A DNA stretch of 41,119 nucleotides from UHGV virus genome UHGV-0135785. One strand, written 5' to 3'. Positions 27,001 through 33,000 of this stretch are shown piece after piece. Made by a program: the position numbers. This DNA comes from a virus. The first letter of the stretch is position 1. Every line of letters starts with the position of its first letter.

Positions 27001-30000
27001 ACAGTTAGTCAACTTTGGTTATTTTGCCTTCTTTTTCTTGATGAACTTTGCATCCATCATCTTTTGATAGCCAAACTAAAAACTTTAAAACCTTAAACAC
27101 AAGTACGGATACTGTAATGAAAGCACCAATTGCAATTATTGCTAGTGAAATTATTTGCATTGGTGCTTTTAATGCAGGGAAAATAGCGTAAATGATCGCG
27201 AAAACAGTAATTATGAGGAACCATCGCTTCACACCAACCTCCTTAGTTTTGAGCAGGATACCATGAAAAAAGTTAACATTGGAAACGTACCAAAGATGCT
27301 CGTTCCGCTCTTTGAGAGCGGTACAATTGTGTTTTGTAGAGACTTTCCAGAATGGCAACGCCTGCATCAAAAACTTGGTGTGGACGTGCAGGACTCGGAT
27401 GCCAACGGAGCGTCTCATACAATGAGCAGCGAGAATGGTGTTTTGCATGTGATAGGCGTGTTCAATGGCAAACTATCTACTATTGCCCATGAGTGCGCTC
27501 ACATGGCATTCGATATCTGCTCAAGGGTCGGTGTTGATGTTGAACCAGGAAGAGCCAATGAGACTTACTGCTACTTAATGAGCAGGCTTGTTGAGTTCTG
27601 CGAGCGACATATCAAAAAGCCGGAGTGACCCGGCTTGATTATTACTTTTTGCTGTCTGGAGTTCGCTTATCCAATACCCAGCCATGACCTGGCTTTGTTG
27701 TTGGCGGAAGCCTTTCGTTGTCCTTGACGGTGGCAAAATTGTCTTTCTTACCGCCGCGTGGGCCAACTTCTTGGTATATTCCGCCGTTTTTTCCTGTGTT
27801 TTCACCTGGTTTTTTCGCCATGATATACCTCAACATACACCCGTTATTGGGCGATTAAATATTGATCTCATTTTATGAGTAGTCAATATGGTCCAAAAAA
27901 GGCAAAAATTAACCCACCGTCAGGTGGGTTTTTTGTTGTCATCACCAAGATATTTCTGCTTATATTCCTCTGAAAGAGGAATTGATCTTTCAACCATGCT
28001 AATAAGTTTATCTACTTGTTTTTTCTGTTTTTCTATGATTTCTAAAAGTTGAGGTATAAGTTTTTCATGCTCGATTTTATCATATTTTCTGTTTATCGCA
28101 TCTAGTTGTTCTTTAAACTGCTGAACGATAGGACCATCCTCCGGCCCAAAATCACGACAAACACGAATCGCCAACTCAAGCAGAGTGACAATCTCAGCAT
28201 TCATAGAACGATTATTTTGTTTTGATGACGCTTCAATTATTTTTTTTAATTCAACAGGAAGCCTAATCCGAAGTTGAGGGTCTTCTCTACTCATACCATT
28301 AGTCCAAACAGGAAAAATTCACAATAAGTAAATTATGCCCCACGGTGGGGTTGACTTCAATGACGCACGGTGTGACAATTTCAATTGCCCCACAGTGGGG
28401 CTATTTAAGGAGTGGAGATGGAAAAAGCAAAAGACATGTATCAACGCAAGGTTCGTTTCCCAGAGGATGTAAGGAAGGCGATTGAAAGAAATGGAGAAAA
28501 AGAGTGTCGACAGTTCAACACGGAACTTATTTATCAATTGAGAAAAGTGTACGGACTGATTGGAGAGAAGAATGCTAGGACATAAAAATAGTGAAGCCCG
28601 GCAGTGCGCGAACACAAACCGGGCCTCTATGTCAGTAACCGTATGCAAGGAAACTAACATGAATATTGTAGCAAAATCAGATTACAACTTCCACGGAGTT
28701 GAGTTGGTGCCCACCCGTGATATGCATGGTGTTTGGTTTACATCATCTAATATTGCATCTGCACTTAAATACGCAAATAGTCGTGCAGTAACAATGATTT
28801 ATAACAAGTATAGCGATGAGTTTAGCGCCGGAATGACTCAGGTACTCGAAGTGAGTACCTCAGGAAATTATCGCAAAAAAGTGCGAGTTTTCTCACTACG
28901 CGGTGCCCACCTAATCGCGATGTTTGCTCGCACTCCGGTAGCCAAAGAGTTCCGCCGCTGGGTGCTGGATATTTTGGATCGGCAGGCAGAATGCTCACCG
29001 ATTGCAAAACAGTTTACTGACGAAGAACTGGTTAATCTCTGCTACTTACAATTGTGGATGGAGAAGAGTCAACAAATGTGCAAACACATCTACCCAGGAA
29101 TGAAGCAAATTTGTTCTGAGCTTTCAGGAAGGATTTACGATATCGCATATGAGACTCGCTATATGTCAGAAGAAACCAAGAAATCACTTCTTCGTGAAAT
29201 GAAGAATCTTGATACCAACAATTTTGTCGTAAAGAACGCTCAGCCAATGCTGGCAAAACTGCGCGGCGAGGAATGGATTCATTGATTGGTGCGCCGGACG
29301 GCGCAAAAAGAAAACCGCCAGTGTGCTGCTGGCGGCCTATGTCACACCCTTACTACCACATAAGGAATGCCTAATGACTTTTAAGAATGTAGCAAACATC
29401 GGATCCGTTGTCACGGATAAAACCATTGACAGCCAGCGCCTGCTTGAGATGGTAAATCAGGCTCGTAGACAGTGCGGTGAGCCGGAGGTTCGTAATAACA
29501 AATTCATCGAGAAAATTGAAGATGAATTGGATGGAGAGCACTACACAAAAAGTGTAGTGCAAAAAGCGAACAAAACTTCGATGGTTATCATTGAGATGTC
29601 AATCAAGCAAGCATTGCGAGTTGCCGCTCGCGAGTCAAAAGCCGTTCGCCGCTCACTGGTAGACCAACTTGAAAGTATGCAAGAAGCGCACATTAAAAGC
29701 GGTAAATCAGCGAGTGGACTTGTTGAGTATCGTCAAGCGCGAACATTGAAAATGACGGTTGAAGCTGTTACCAATCTGTTCGATCTGATGCCAAATCTTG
29801 CGCCTGAGGCAAAGCAGACAGCGGCAGCAAGTATAATCAACCCGCTTGTTGGTTTTAATGCAATACCTCTTCCGGCAATAGAAGAGCATTACTACTCAGC
29901 AGGGGAGGTTGCAGAGCAGCTTGGAGTAACGGCCAACAAGATTGGTCGCATTGCTAACGCAAACAACCTCAAAACTGAGCAGTACGGGAAGTTCTTCCTG

Positions 30001-33000
30001 GATAAATCGGCGCATTCCAGCAAACAGGTAGAGGCGTTCCGTTACAATTCTGAAGGCGTTAAAGCACTACAACACCTGCTACATGGCTCAAATGTGGCGT
30101 AACATTTTATAATGAAAACTAAACCCGCTTAATCGCGGGTTTTTTCTTTCCTTAGAATTTCAGCCGCAACTTCTTTTACTCGTTCCGAGATTAATGAGGC
30201 CAGCCTCTCTTCTTCATCACGATACCCGCTTACAGGTGATGGTTTGGAGAGTGATTCTTCCATCGTAGCCACAATTTCGGAATTGATAGACCTGTTATTC
30301 ATTTTTGCACGCTGCTTAATCTTAGCGTGCAACTCGTGTGTAAGCCTCAAGTGGAACTGCGCCTCATCGTATTTGCTGTACATCATCAATGCCTCACCAA
30401 ATGGGTGGAATGGCATCGTAAAACCTACTGTACAAATCAACAATCGTACCGTTTCGGTATGTAATAAATGCCAACCGTAGCCATGCTGCGGCGATTCCTT
30501 GTATCTGGAGCAAATTAAATGACAGACATTACAGCCAATGTTGTAGTGAGTATGCCTTCGCAACTCTTCACTATGGCGCGTTCTTTTAAAGCCGTAGCTA
30601 ATGGCAAAATTTATATCGGTAAAATTGACACTGACCCGGTAAATCCTGAAAACCAGATTCAGGTCTATGTTGAGAACGAAGATGGTTCTCACGTTCCTGT
30701 TTCGCAACCAATCATCATTAACGCCGCTGGATATCCGGTATATAACGGACAGATTGCCAAGTTCGTAACCGTGCAAGGCCATTCTATGGCTGTTTATGAT
30801 GCGTATGGTACACAGCAGTTCTATTTTCCGAATGTGCTGAAGTATGATCCTGATCAGTTACGGCAGCAATTAGAAGACCCAGATGGAGCGAATAAATACC
30901 CAAAACTTCAGATAGCAAGATGGAGAGACAGTTATGATGTAAGAGGTTGGGGGGCTATTGGTGATGGTGTTCATGATGATACATCAGCTCTATCAGAATT
31001 ACTTTCTGTTGCAACAGGTGGTGAAAAGATAGATGGGCGAGGGCTTACTTTTAAAGTATCAACTCTTCCAGATGTCAGTCGATTTAAAAATGCTCGTTTT
31101 TTATTTGAGAGAATACCGGGTCAGCCTCTTTTTTATGCTTCTGAAGATTTTATCCAGGGAGAGTTATTTAAAATTACAGATACACCGTGGTACAACGCCT
31201 GGACGCAGGATAAAACGTTTGTATATGACAATGTCATCTATGCGCCTTTTATGGCTGGAGACCGCCATGGTGTAAATAACCTCCATGTTGCATGGGTTCG
31301 CTCAGGAGATGACGGGAAGACCTGGACAACGCCGGAATGGCTTACAGATTTACATGAAAACTATCCCACAGTTAACTATCACTGCATGAGTATGGGGGTT
31401 GTCAGAAATCGCCTTTTTGCTGTAATTGAGACGCGGACCGTGAGCGGAAATAAACTGCAGGTTGCAGAGTTGTGGGATCGCCCAATGAGTCGCAGCCTTC
31501 GCGTTTATGGTGGTATAACGAAAGCAGCAAATCAGCAAGTCGCTTATATTCGCATTACTGATCACGGATTATTTGCTGGTGATTTTGTCAACTTCTCAAA
31601 CTCTGGTGTTACAGGTGTTACCGGGAATATGACGGTGACTACTGTTATTGATAAAAATACTTTTACAGTTACGACGCAAAATACCCAGGATGTGGATCAG
31701 AATAACGAGGGTAGATACTGGAGTTTTGGTACATCATTTCACTCGTCACCATGGAGAAAAACCAGTCTTGGAACTATTCCTTCTTTTGTTGACGGAAGCA
31801 CTCCTGTTACTGAGATTCACAGTTTTGCGACGATTAGCGATAACAGTTTTGCTGTTGGCTACCATAATGGTGATATTGGCCCACGCGAGCTTGGGATACT
31901 CTATTTCTCTGATGCTTTCGGTTCTCCTGGTAGCTTTGTTCGCAGACGCATACCTGCAGAATATGAGGCGAATGCATCTGAGCCATGTGTAAAATATTAT
32001 GATGGCATTCTGTATCTGACGACCAGGGGGACATTAAGTACTCAACCCGGTAGTTCATTGCACAGAAGCTCTGATTTAGGTACATCATGGAATTCTCTTC
32101 GCTTCCCAAATAATGTTCATCACTCAAACCTTCCTTTTGCCAAAGTTGGCGATGAGCTGATTATTTTTGGCAGTGAGCGCGCATTTGGTGAGTGGGAAGG
32201 AGGAGAACCTGATAACCGTTATGCAGGAAATTATCCAAGAACATTTATGACCAGAGTTAACGTCAATGAGTGGAGTCTGGATAATGTAGAGTGGGTTAAT
32301 GTTACTGATCAGATTTATCAGGGCGGAATAGTTAACTCTGCGGTTGGTGTTGGTTCAGTTTGTATCAAAGACAACTGGCTGTACTACATTTTCGGTGGGG
32401 AAGACTTTCTAAACCCATGGAGCATAGGGGATAACAACAGAAAATATCCTTATGTTCACGATGGTCACCCGGCTGATTTGTATTGTTTCAGGGTGAAAAT
32501 TAAACAGGAAGAATTTGTTTCAAGGGATTTTGTCTACGGAGCCACTCCTAACAGAACGCTTCCTACTTTTATGTCGACGTCAGGCGTGAGGACGGTTCCT
32601 GTACCCGTTGATTTCACAGATGATGTTGCCGTCCAGTCACTGACTGTCCATGCAGGTACATCAGGACAAGTTCGCGCGGAAGTCAAACTTGAGGGTAATT
32701 ACGCCATTATTGCGAAGAAAGTACCGTCTGATGATGTTACCGCTCAGAGATTAATCGTTAGCGGCGGTGAAACAACGTCTTCAGCAGATGGTGCAATGAT
32801 AACGTTGCATGGTTCCGGAAGCAGTACTCCACGTCGCGCGGTATATAACGCACTCGAACATCTTTTTGAGAACGGAGATGTTAAACCTTATCTTGATAAT
32901 GTAAATGCTCTTGGTGGTCCGGGAAACAGGTTCTCGACAGTTTATCTTGGCTCCAATCCTGTGGTTACCAGTGACGGAACATTAAAGACAGAGCCGGTCT

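What the first reader, a model, noticed from the sequence alone, without database searches (positions are those of the whole stretch)
27920..30518. immI-like region with two Mnt paralogs and a promoter bracketed by CCCCAC-N-GTGGGG operators
An Arc-like (55 aa) and an Ant-like gene are preceded by a promoter with near-identical inverted-repeat sites on both sides (28338..28350 and 28388..28400). A 124-aa Mnt-like protein with a long coiled-coil tail is encoded divergently. A second, shorter Mnt-like gene (30129..30386) lies on the minus strand just before the tailspike, with a TACCG-TTT-CGGTA palindrome (30447..30459) in its upstream region. Two Mnt paralogs suggest two separately controlled units or a decoy/co-repressor arrangement.
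Basis: partly seen in the sequence, partly recalled or inferred. Interest (0 to 1): 0.55.

Follow-up and report, generated by a model that had tools for sequence, protein, structure and literature searches.

The report
Composite antirepressor-control region, P22-like phage
This is the secondary-immunity ("ant moron"/immI-type) region of a P22-like, K1-capsule-specific temperate phage, built from two independent repressor/operator units, one controlling two antirepressor genes and one sitting alone in front of the tailspike gene; it is a new variant of a well-known system, not a new kind.

Summary
The region lies between the ejection-protein gene and an endosialidase tailspike and is a three-part mosaic.

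Unit A is a mobile cassette. It holds a 124-aa ribbon-helix-helix (RHH) repressor, back-to-back promoters, three related dyads (O1, M, O2) and a 55-aa Arc-like gene. It drives two antirepressor genes, each with a sar-like antisense RNA. The same cassette is 99% identical inside a lambdoid prophage's tail genes. It recurs in 80 of 80 viral contigs that encode the Arc-like protein, with at least 8 different repressor C-terminal domains.

Unit B is an 85-aa full-length Mnt homologue with its own promoter and operator (GTACC-N5-GGTAT) about 65 nt upstream of the tailspike. It is conserved in 79 loci under strong purifying selection (dN/dS 0.02-0.17). At the same locus, ST160-type Mnt proteins carry a different operator.

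The two Mnt-like proteins have different recognition residues and non-overlapping operators. So "two separately controlled units" is supported and "decoy/co-repressor" is not.

Two points remain open: which protein binds M, and what unit B regulates. The region is a new variant of P22 immI and of moderate interest.

The parts
27911..27930 (.). Bidirectional terminator hairpin that also encodes the C-terminal ...KKPT* of the 124-aa repressor. It is the left joint of cassette A.
   Evidence: Terminator scan. Sequence left of it (27600..27936) is 96-97% identical to P22-type Salmonella phages such as ST160; the P22 sequence read directly shows the same layout. Sequence right of it is 99% identical to a lambdoid prophage. 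The KKPT/KKTT tail is shared by unrelated repressor C-domains.
27920..28294 (-). rep124: RHH (Mnt-like) repressor with a helical C-terminal domain.
   Evidence: Pfam Arc E 3e-7. Best PDB hit is Mnt residues 2-42, E 0.0016. AF2 helices at 14-27, 31-49, 55-69, 76-104 and 109-115, mean pLDDT 68. Top Foldseek hits are Arc, AmrZ and CopG but all have E>1.
28316..28334 (.). Conserved dyad AATTCAC-N5-GTAAATT. It overlaps the -10 and start region of the leftward promoter and is not assigned to a protein.
   Evidence: Read. This block is conserved in 54 unique intergenic regions.
28332..28360 (-). Leftward promoter for rep124 (TTGAAG 28360..28355, 17-nt spacer, CATAAT 28337..28332). O1 lies in its spacer.
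   Evidence: Promoter scan. CATAAT and the TTG of the -35 are conserved across relatives.
28338..28350 (.). O1, a perfect 13-bp palindrome CCCCACGGTGGGG. It abuts the -35 of the rightward promoter.
   Evidence: It is unchanged apart from its central base in 54 of 55 unique intergenic sequences. Its 9-bp core CCACGGTGG is identical to the P22 Omnt core.
28351..28379 (+). Pant-like promoter: TTGACT, 17-nt spacer, GACAAT, with a TG extended -10.
   Evidence: TTGAC(A/T) and GACA(C/A)T are conserved.
28362..28376 (.). M, a weaker dyad GACGCACGGTGTGAC in the promoter spacer. Its centre is 25 bp from O1.
   Evidence: Identical in 50 of 55 unique sequences, with O1-M spacing of 25 bp in 55 of 55. Caveat: part of it (CAATG...GGTGT) is a promoter-core motif shared with cassettes that carry other operators.
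28388..28400 (.). O2, CCCCACAGTGGGG, at about +2..+14 of the Pant-like promoter.
   Evidence: Its centre lies 15 nt after the -10, the same as P22 Omnt relative to Pant. Its left half varies in relatives. The O1-O2 centre distance is 49-52 bp, mode 51.
28418..28585 (+). Arc-like small RHH protein (55 aa), first gene of the rightward operon.
   Evidence: Pfam Arc E 0.0011, 19.2 bits, just under the 20.4 cutoff. PHROG Arc-like repressor E 1e-5. BLASTP against P22 Arc E 2e-5.
28588..28658 (-). sar-like antisense RNA 1, complementary to the ant1 ribosome-binding region. Its promoter -10 TACAAT is at 28670..28665 with TG at 28673..28672.
   Evidence: Alignment with the P22 sar region shows an invariant TTGCTAnAnT and a GAAGCCC...GGGCTTC stem. 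It folds into the same two hairpins as P22 sar, z = -5.2. The terminator stem is kept across 16 variants. Rfam RF00262 does not detect it.
28659..29285 (+). ant1: antirepressor with a Bro-N N-domain and a P22AR_C C-domain.
   Evidence: Pfam P22_AR_C E 5e-13 and Bro-N E 2e-10. PHROG 245, anti-repressor Ant, E 5e-52. Its C-domain is 29% identical to the P22 Ant C-terminus, E 1e-9.
29304..29379 (-). sar-like antisense unit 2, covering the ant2 start. It has promoter GTGACA-17-TACATT at 29414..29386 and a terminator at 29338..29312.
   Evidence: Promoter and terminator scans. It shares the invariant TTGCTAnAnT. Fold z = -2.5. This prediction is weaker than for unit 1.
29374..30102 (+). ant2: second antirepressor-family gene.
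   Evidence: PHROG 1726, anti-repressor, E 7e-101. No Pfam domain.
30121..30142 (.). Bidirectional terminator between ant2 and mnt2.
   Evidence: The weak RyhB and isrK hits here are only this hairpin.
30129..30386 (-). Mnt2: full-length homologue of P22 Mnt (85 aa; the start is at 30386 or 30383).
   Evidence: PDB 1mnt E 9e-16 over residues 7-78. Pfam Arc E 3e-15. dN/dS of 0.02-0.17 against diverged homologues.
30415..30443 (-). Predicted mnt2 promoter: TTGTTG 30443..30438, 17-nt spacer, TACGAT 30420..30415.
   Evidence: Below the scan threshold, but both hexamer blocks are conserved across 60 unique intergenic sequences. The geometry matches P22 Pmnt/Omnt.
30446..30460 (.). Omnt2: GTACCGTTTCGGTAT, whose conserved core is GTACC-N5-GGTA(C/T). 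It is centred near -45 of the mnt2 promoter and 66 nt before the tailspike ATG.
   Evidence: It occupies the position homologous to ST160 Omnt, AAGACCAC-N-GTGGTCTT.
30519..33464 (+). Tailspike (context): a P22-type head-binding domain plus an endosialidase.
   Evidence: Pfam Head_binding, End_beta_propel, End_tail_spike and Peptidase_S74.

Best explanation
The region is the 'ant moron' (immI-type secondary immunity region) of a P22-like temperate phage. It is assembled from two independent regulatory units.

Unit A (27911..30142):
- rep124 is a ribbon-helix-helix dimer whose helical tail mediates higher-order assembly (inferred). In the lysogen it is made from a leftward promoter.
- rep124 binds the CCCCAC-N-GTGGGG dyads O1 and O2, and possibly the weaker M.
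- O2 covers the start site of the rightward Pant-like promoter. O1 abuts its -35 and lies in the spacer of rep124's own promoter.
- Occupancy therefore shuts off the operon arc-like -> ant1 -> ant2 and autoregulates rep124.
- When the operon fires, on infection or on loss of rep124, the Arc-like protein feeds back negatively.
- Two sar-like antisense RNAs damp translation of ant1 and ant2.
- The Ant proteins inactivate C2/CI-type repressors. The phage's own repressor is at 1535..2185.

Unit B (30129..30460):
- Mnt2 is a true Mnt orthologue with a different recognition strand.
- It is expressed from its own promoter and binds a single operator at -45 of that promoter, the same geometry as P22 Omnt/Pmnt.
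- There it cannot block its own promoter. It can block rightward transcription initiating or passing toward the tailspike. It can also act in trans on incoming relatives that carry the same operator.

Shown: the anatomy, the homologies, the conservation, the operator/protein covariation and the independence of the two units. Inferred: all binding events, oligomeric states, promoter activities and the biological role of unit B.
For: Position and parts:
-.

rep124 binds O1/O2:
- The 9-bp core is identical to P22 Omnt, and O2 has the same offset from the -10, 15 nt.
- rep124 keeps Mnt's Arg2 and Arg10 equivalents, and its best PDB match is Mnt.
- A homologue with the same C-domain but a different N-terminal RHH (L011) has entirely different repeats.
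- Homologues with the same N-terminal RHH but different C-domains keep O1/M/O2.
- In cassettes B and C the same Arc-like protein is paired with different long repressors and different dyads. The dyads therefore track the long repressor.

sar:
-.

Mobility and mosaic structure:
-.

Unit B:
- Full-length Mnt homology.
- Operator, promoter and gene are conserved in 79 loci. At the same locus, GRDDPQF-type Mnt carries an AAGACCAC-N-GTGGTCTT operator instead.
- dN/dS is 0.02-0.17.
- Neither operator has a copy in the other unit.

Literature context:
- The 'ant moron' occurs in ten types in sixteen genomes, and mnt-only versions exist in ST64T, ST104 and L (PMC2629481, PMC8022706).
Against: - No binding, transcript or phenotype data exist for any part.
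- Within the rep124 family, the N-terminal RHH, the Arc-like protein and the dyads always co-occur (80 of 80 loci). Covariation inside this family therefore cannot tell which of the two RHH proteins binds O1/O2.
- rep124 and the Arc-like protein have nearly the same predicted DNA-facing residues (Q,R,R against Q,K,R). The Arc-like protein may therefore use the same sites.
- M may be partly a conserved promoter core and not an operator.
- The AF2 model is only moderate (pLDDT 68), and its fold matches are not significant.
- No consensus rightward promoter exists next to Omnt2, so the regulated target of Mnt2 is not identified.
- Rfam's sar model does not score the window's sar-like RNAs.
Confidence: 0.6

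Rival explanations
1. Shared-operator switch. rep124 and the Arc-like protein both bind the same three dyads (O1, M, O2) with different affinity orders. The back-to-back promoters would then work like lambda CI/Cro at OR. This differs from P22, where Mnt and Arc have separate operators.
For: - The predicted DNA-facing beta-strand residues are almost the same: Q,R,R against Q,K,R.
- Across 10 collapsed cassette types, long and short RHH partners share these residues far more often than shuffled pairs do: 11 of 20 matches against 2.9 expected, P about 7e-5.
- No separate Arc-type operator is recognisable.
- The three sites are spaced 25 and about 26 bp apart across divergent promoters. This is like lambda OR spacing (own knowledge).
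Against: - Residue positions were assigned by alignment to the R-x-P motif, not from a structure.
- In P22, near-identical triads (H,N,R against Q,N,R) still give different operators.
- In cassette types B, C and J the partners have different residues.
- M may be a promoter core.
- A conserved fourth dyad at 28316..28334 could be the Arc-like site.
Confidence: 0.3
2. O1 and O2 are the operators of the Arc-like protein only. rep124 acts elsewhere, for example at the leader dyad 28316..28334 or on another phage.
For: The Arc-like protein, the dyads and rep124's N-domain always co-occur, so covariation within the family does not exclude this.
Against: - The O1/O2 core equals the P22 Omnt core, and rep124 carries the Mnt-type N-terminal arm (S-R-E-D-P against A-R-D-D-P), which the Arc-like protein lacks.
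- In cassettes B and C the dyads change with the long repressor while the Arc-like protein stays the same.
Confidence: 0.07
3. Mnt2 is a decaying remnant of a former immI region with no present function. This was considered for the mnt-like gene of phage L in PMC8022706.
For: - No ant gene lies downstream of its operator.
- The Pant-equivalent hexamers are degenerate.
Against: - All 75 mnt2-type copies recovered are uninterrupted ORFs of 83-88 aa.
- dN/dS is 0.02-0.17 while synonymous sites are near saturation.
- Its promoter blocks and operator are conserved in the 75 mnt2-type loci while the flanks vary.
Confidence: 0.05
4. Mnt2 acts with or against rep124 at the same promoter, as a co-repressor, a decoy or a heterodimer.
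For: The two RHH domains are 43% identical over 37 residues.
Against: - The recognition residues and N-terminal arms differ: SREDPQLRIRLP against KYDEAQFHLRLT.
- No Omnt2-like site lies near 28300..28420, and no CCCCAC-N-GTGGGG lies near mnt2.
- Mnt2 occurs with three unrelated left cassettes, including one with an HTH repressor.
- The left cassette occurs widely without Mnt2.
Confidence: 0.03

Closest known systems
Phage P22 immI region (mnt, Pmnt/Pant, Omnt, Oarc, arc, sar, ant)
   Same: - Same genomic slot, between gene 16 and gene 9.
- A divergent RHH repressor, a small Arc-like first gene, an antisense sar RNA over the ant ribosome-binding site, and an antirepressor with a P22AR_C domain.
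- The operator core CCACGGTGG, with O2 at the same offset from the -10.
   Different: - The promoters are back-to-back with overlapping -35 regions. In P22 they overlap fully, face to face.
- There are three related dyads and no recognisable separate Oarc.
- The repressor has a different, longer C-terminal domain.
- The antirepressor N-domain is Bro-N.
- There is a second antirepressor gene with its own sar-like unit, plus an extra Mnt unit downstream.
mnt-only 'ant morons' of ST160 and SE1 (seen here), and of L, ST64T and ST104 (literature: PMC2629481, PMC8022706)
   Same: Unit B has the same layout as ST160. mnt reads leftward, the operator sits just upstream of its -35, and the conserved ...CCGTAGCC...GGAG...ATG leader of the tailspike follows.
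   Different: - The recognition strand differs (AQFHLRLT against PQFNLRLP), as does the operator (GTACC-N5-GGTAC against AAGACCAC-N-GTGGTCTT).
- Here the unit coexists with a complete antirepressor cassette on its other side.
Lambda OR with CI and Cro (works-like comparison only)
   Same: Three related dyads about 25 bp apart span divergent promoters. A long repressor with an assembly domain is on one side and a small repressor is the first gene on the other side. The lambda spacing is from my own knowledge.
   Different: The proteins are RHH, not HTH. Sharing of the sites by the two proteins is not shown. The output is antirepressor synthesis, not the whole lytic programme.
LexA-controlled antirepressors of Gifsy prophages (Lemire et al. 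2011, cited in PMC7067206)
   Same: Prophage-encoded antirepressors that inactivate CI-type repressors.
   Different: No LexA-box-like CTG-N10-CAG occurs in 27900..30520. Control here is phage-encoded, by RHH repressors plus antisense RNA.

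Membership tests
P22-type immI / 'ant moron' | Located between the last ejection-protein gene (gene 16 homologue) and the tailspike gene | tested here: met
   A 707-aa ORF at 24885..27008 lies upstream, in the slot annotated as DNA transfer protein in the related prophage of E. coli MS10495. The tailspike with a Head_binding domain is at 30519. The flank 27600..27936 is 96-97% identical to P22-type Salmonella phages such as ST160; the P22 region read directly has the same layout.
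P22-type immI / 'ant moron' | Antirepressor gene related to P22 Ant | tested here: met
   ant1 has P22_AR_C (E 5e-13) and matches PHROG 245. BLASTP against the P22 Ant C-terminus gives E 1e-9. The N-domain differs (Bro-N). Antirepressor activity itself was not tested.
P22-type immI / 'ant moron' | Small Arc-type RHH protein as first gene of the ant operon | tested here: met
   Pfam Arc scores 19.2 bits against a 20.4 cutoff, E 0.0011. PHROG Arc-like repressor. BLASTP against P22 Arc E 2e-5.
P22-type immI / 'ant moron' | sar antisense RNA across the arc-ant junction | tested here: inconclusive
   Alignment shows sequence homology of the promoter -10 and the terminator stem. The RNA folds into the same two hairpins, z = -5.2. 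Rfam RF00262 scores P22 at 97.8 bits but gives no hit in the window at E<=10. No transcript data are available.
P22-type immI / 'ant moron' | Fully overlapping face-to-face Pant/Pmnt with separate Omnt and Oarc | tested here: not met
   In the window the promoters are back-to-back and only their -35 regions overlap. The three dyads all belong to one family, and no distinct Arc-type operator was found. In P22 Oarc lies in the Pant spacer and Omnt downstream of the -10.
Mnt repressor (P22 Mnt, PDB 1mnt/1qey) | RHH N-domain plus the Mnt C-terminal tetramerisation helix (...SKPSPVTGYR...) | tested here: met
   This row is for Mnt2. phmmer against 1mnt covers residues 7-78, E 9e-16, including SKPSPVSGYRDEEERLA. 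Tetramer formation itself was not tested.
Mnt repressor (P22 Mnt, PDB 1mnt/1qey) | RHH N-domain plus the Mnt C-terminal tetramerisation helix | tested here: not met
   This row is for rep124. Only residues 3-43 align to Mnt. The C-terminal 80 residues are unrelated and are exchanged among at least 8 domain types in relatives. rep124 is Mnt-like in its DNA-binding domain and in its role, but is not a member by full architecture.
Ribbon-helix-helix (Arc/MetJ) fold | N-terminal beta-strand followed by two helices, forming an intertwined dimer | tested here: inconclusive
   Pfam Arc is above its cutoff for rep124 and Mnt2. The AF2 monomer shows helices 14-27 and 31-49 after an unstructured N-terminus, as expected for a strand that forms only in the dimer. 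The top Foldseek hits are Arc, AmrZ and CopG, but all have E>1. Dimer modelling was not possible with these tools.
Lambda-type tripartite operator switch | Two repressors competing for the same three operators between divergent promoters | not testable with these tools
   Only indirect evidence exists: similar DNA-facing residues in the two RHH proteins, and three related dyads. Binding assays are needed.

The most novel reading that the evidence does not exclude
The long repressor (rep124) and the short Arc-like protein are specificity-matched RHH paralogues that compete for the same tripartite operator. The cassette would then be a portable CI/Cro-style bistable switch made of ribbon-helix-helix proteins that gates antirepressor release.

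The whole cassette family would then evolve new immunity specificities by swapping the recognition strand of both proteins together with the dyads, while freely exchanging the assembly domain. At least 10 RHH/operator types sit upstream of homologous ant genes.
Probability: 0.3. Interest if true: 0.55.

Novelty: new variant of a known kind. Interest (0 to 1): 0.38.

Why it matters
Antirepressor modules decide when prophages are induced and whether co-resident or superinfecting phages can induce each other. Only the P22 version has been dissected.

This variant shows that the control part is a compact cassette that moves between podo-, sipho- and myo-type prophages of Escherichia, Salmonella, Citrobacter, Enterobacter, Klebsiella and Leclercia. 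The cassette comprises the RHH recognition domain, three dyads and a small RHH gene. Its assembly domain is interchangeable.

It also shows that the 'orphan' Mnt next to the tailspike is a selected, operator-matched unit and not debris. The natural sets of matched repressor/operator pairs are ready material for studying how RHH specificity evolves, and for building orthogonal repressors.

None of this overturns current understanding.

Tried and rejected
- **Rfam search for sar.** The family exists and scores P22 at 97.8 bits, but it gives no hit in the window even at E<=10. The weak symR, RyhB, isrK and Hrs13 hits are hairpin or terminator look-alikes.
- **Foldseek of the AF2 model against PDB.** The top hits are RHH proteins but none is significant, so this was not used as proof.
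- **Covariation inside the rep124 family.** The aim was to decide which RHH protein binds O1/O2. It was uninformative because the N-domain, the Arc-like protein and the dyads always travel together. Cassettes B and C gave the only discriminating comparison.
- **Rightward promoter next to Omnt2.** A promoter here would make the tailspike a direct target. None reaches the scan threshold; only degenerate Pant-equivalent hexamers are present.
- **Extra copies of either operator elsewhere in the 41-kb window.** None was found beyond chance.
- **LexA-type control.** There is no CTG-N10-CAG in 27900..30520.
- **Exact 25/25-bp phasing as a conserved feature.** O1-M is fixed at 25 bp, but O1-O2 varies from 49 to 52 bp, so strict helical phasing is not claimed.
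- **The 217-aa ORF at 30129..30782.** It is an open-frame extension antisense to the tailspike start. The conserved gene is the 85-aa Mnt2.
- **Literature searches**. These found descriptions of ant-moron diversity but no characterisation of this cassette or its operators.

Full report
**Observation**

- The 124-aa ORF is at 27920..28294 (-).
- CCCCACGGTGGGG is at 28338..28350 and CCCCACAGTGGGG at 28388..28400.
- These flank a sigma-70-type promoter, TTGACT-17-GACAAT with a TG extension, at 28351..28379.
- The 55-aa ORF is at 28418..28585, the Ant-like ORF at 28659..29285 and the 85-aa ORF at 30129..30386 (-).
- TACCGTTTCGGTA is at 30447..30459.

The CCCCAC-N-GTGGGG pair is far beyond chance. 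These are the only two perfect matches in 41 kb, and only 0.5 matches with up to 2 mismatches are expected. The 30447 palindrome alone is not remarkable, because about 40 such 5+3+5 inverted repeats are expected per window.

- a third dyad, GACGCACGGTGTGAC (28362..28376), in the promoter spacer, centred 25 bp from each of the others;
- a divergent leftward promoter, TTGAAG-17-CATAAT at 28360..28332, with O1 in its spacer;
- a second antirepressor gene at 29374..30102;
- two antisense-RNA units.

**What the window is**

The window is a complete P22-like temperate phage genome.
- It has an HTH plus S24-peptidase repressor (1535..2185) and an integrase.
- Its tailspike combines a P22 head-binding domain with an endosialidase, so it is K1-specific and CUS-3-like.
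- The finding occupies the slot between the ejection-protein gene and the tailspike. Villafane et al. (PMC2629481) named this slot the 'ant moron' and found it hypervariable, with ten types in sixteen genomes.

**Mosaic structure**

The region is made of three blocks.
- 27600..27936 is 96-97% identical to P22-type Salmonella phages such as ST160, up to a terminator hairpin; the P22 sequence read directly shows the same layout.
- 27937..28590 holds rep124, the intergenic region and the Arc-like gene. It has no close match in the phage collection. It is 99.2% identical to a segment lying between tail genes L and K of a lambdoid prophage in E. coli CFSAN018748.
- From 28582 onward, ant1, ant2, mnt2 and the tailspike N-terminus are 92-98% identical to phage JEP4 and many E. 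coli prophages.
- Those relatives carry other regulators on the left. JEP4 has an HTH C2-like repressor, and E. coli 55989 and MS10495 have a 106-aa RHH repressor.
- The joint lies at the Arc-like stop codon.

**Unit A proteins**

- rep124 has a Pfam Arc domain (E 3e-7). Its best solved relative is P22 Mnt residues 2-42.
- AF2 predicts two RHH helices followed by three more helices, one about 29 residues long (mean pLDDT 68).
- The top fold matches are Arc, AmrZ and CopG, but none is significant. A coiled coil is plausible but not shown.
- The 55-aa protein is Arc-like.
- ant1 combines Bro-N with the P22 antirepressor C-domain.
- ant2 belongs to PHROG 1726, annotated anti-repressor.

**Unit A operators**

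- The P22 reference shows Omnt as AGGTCCACGGTGGACCT, centred 15 nt after the Pant -10.
- O2 has the same 9-bp core and the same 15-nt offset.
- O1 has no P22 counterpart. It sits against the -35 of the rightward promoter and inside the leftward promoter.
- In 80 of 80 IMG/VR loci encoding the Arc-like protein, the divergent gene starts MSREDPQ.
- Across the 55 unique intergenic sequences (54 from the loci plus the window), O1 is unchanged apart from its central base in 54. M is identical in 50 of 55. O1-M is 25 bp in 55 of 55. O2 varies in its left half, and O1-O2 is 49-52 bp.
- The repressor's C-terminal domain occurs in at least 8 unrelated forms of 86-151 aa.
- A homologue with the window's C-domain but another N-terminal RHH (L011) has unrelated repeats.
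- The recognition domain plus dyads therefore form the specificity module, and the tail is exchangeable.

**Hosts of the cassette**

The cassette is embedded in the tail gene clusters of several prophage types:
- myo-type prophages in Salmonella;
- sipho-type prophages in Citrobacter, Enterobacter, Klebsiella, Leclercia and E. coli;
- the podovirus TL-2011b, where the repressor is frameshifted and O1 is degenerate.

**Which protein binds the dyads**

Within this family the two RHH proteins always co-occur, so covariation does not separate them. Three arguments favour rep124.
- It has the Mnt-type N-terminal arm and Arg2/Arg10 equivalents.
- P22, ST160, L021 and the window all pair that arm with a CAC-N-GTG inner core. 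Mnt2 lacks the arm and also lacks that core.
- In cassettes B and C the same Arc-like protein is paired with different long repressors and different dyads.

The two partners nevertheless share predicted DNA-facing residues: Q,R,R against Q,K,R.
- Across 10 collapsed cassette types this sharing is strongly non-random. There are 11 of 20 matches against 2.9 expected in shuffles.
- A shared-operator, CI/Cro-like arrangement therefore remains a live alternative.
- M may be partly a promoter-core motif (CAATG...GGTGT) that is common to cassettes with other operators.
- A conserved dyad at 28316..28334 is unassigned.

**Antisense RNAs**

- The arc-ant1 junction aligns with the P22 sar region. It has an invariant TTGCTAnAnT (-10) and a GAAGCCC...GGGCTTC stem.
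- It folds into the same two hairpins as P22 sar, with z = -5.2 against -5.3 for P22.
- The terminator stem is kept in 16 variants.
- Rfam's sar model detects P22 but not the window.
- A second unit overlaps the ant2 start. It has a promoter and terminator and a fold z of -2.5.

**Unit B**

- Mnt2 aligns with P22 Mnt over residues 7-78, including the tetramerisation segment.
- ST160 has the arrangement mnt(-)/operator/gene 9; the literature reports mnt-only morons for L, ST64T and ST104 (PMC2629481, PMC8022706).
- The window's mnt2-tailspike spacer is homologous to that of ST160. TACCGTTTCGGTA lies exactly where ST160 has AAGACCACCGTGGTCTT.
- In 79 IMG/VR loci (60 unique spacers) the gene, the promoter blocks and the core GTACC-N5-GGTA(C/T) are conserved. 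The promoter blocks are TTGT(T/G)(G/A)-17-TA(C/T)GAT.
- Loci encoding GRDDPQF-type Mnt carry the other operator in otherwise alignable flanks.
- dN/dS against diverged copies is 0.02-0.17. This rules out a decaying remnant.
- The operator is centred about 45 bp upstream of the predicted mnt2 start, the same as Omnt relative to Pmnt in P22. It is therefore placed to affect rightward transcription, not mnt2's own promoter.
- Only degenerate Pant-like hexamers remain there.
- Neither unit contains the other's operator.
- Mnt2 occurs with three different left cassettes. In 54 of 80 loci it is adjacent to ant1 or ant2 homologues.

**Verdict**

The immI-like reading and 'two separately controlled units' are supported. 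'Decoy/co-repressor' is not.

Relative to P22 immI this is a new variant. It differs in four ways:
- back-to-back promoters with a three-dyad operator;
- a modular repressor;
- two antirepressors, each with an antisense RNA;
- an additional autonomous Mnt/operator unit at the tailspike.

No publication characterising this cassette was found. All binding and regulatory steps remain inferences.

Noticed in passing
window 27911..27930 (also P22 L005 14510..14535 and many loci): The C-terminal ...KKPT* (KKTT* in P22 Mnt) shared by otherwise unrelated repressor C-domains is encoded inside a conserved bidirectional terminator hairpin. The hairpin appears to be the recombination joint at which cassettes are exchanged.
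   Followed up: partly
window 29304..29414 (-): A second sar-like antisense unit overlaps the start of the second antirepressor gene. It has an extended -10 TGcTACATT and a terminator at 29338..29312. Each ant gene therefore seems to have its own antisense RNA.
   Followed up: partly
window 28316..28334: A conserved dyad, AATTCAC-N5-GTAAATT, overlaps the -10 and start of the leftward promoter. It is a possible extra operator, for example for the Arc-like protein.
   Followed up: no
window 30475..30491; P22 L005 about 16040..16060 and 16160..16180: A conserved hairpin, CCGTAGCCATGCTGCGG, lies in the tailspike leader. It is kept with paired changes in relatives (CCGCAGCTCTGCTGTGG) and is duplicated in P22. 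Its function is unknown.
   Followed up: no
L183-L262 (loci upstream of ant1 homologues): At least 10 different regulator/operator cassettes sit upstream of homologous ant genes. These include RHH+RHH pairs and HTH+RHH pairs. In most RHH pairs the long and short proteins have the same predicted DNA-contact residues.
   Followed up: partly
L006 (phage TL-2011b) 2517..2610: The repressor gene of this cassette is frameshifted after codon 9 in the deposited TL-2011b sequence, and its O1 is degenerate (GCCTCACCGTGTGC). The Arc-like gene, O2 and Ant are intact.
   Followed up: no
window 30519..33464: The tailspike is a P22 head-binding domain fused to a complete endosialidase with an S74 chaperone. 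The phage is therefore K1-capsule specific (CUS-3-like). No record in the phage or complete E. coli genome collections covers at least 80% of the 27600..30800 region.
   Followed up: partly
window 30129..30782 (-): A 217-aa open frame extends mnt2 upstream through the operator and antisense to the tailspike start. It recurs in relatives only because the tailspike N-terminus is conserved, so it is probably not a gene.
   Followed up: partly
window 27263..27628 (+) and 27642..27836 (-): Two small conserved genes of unknown function (PHROG 1365 and PHROG 3202) lie between the ejection-protein gene and cassette A. The second lies in the block shared with P22-type phages, at the position where P22 has orf59a.
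   Followed up: no
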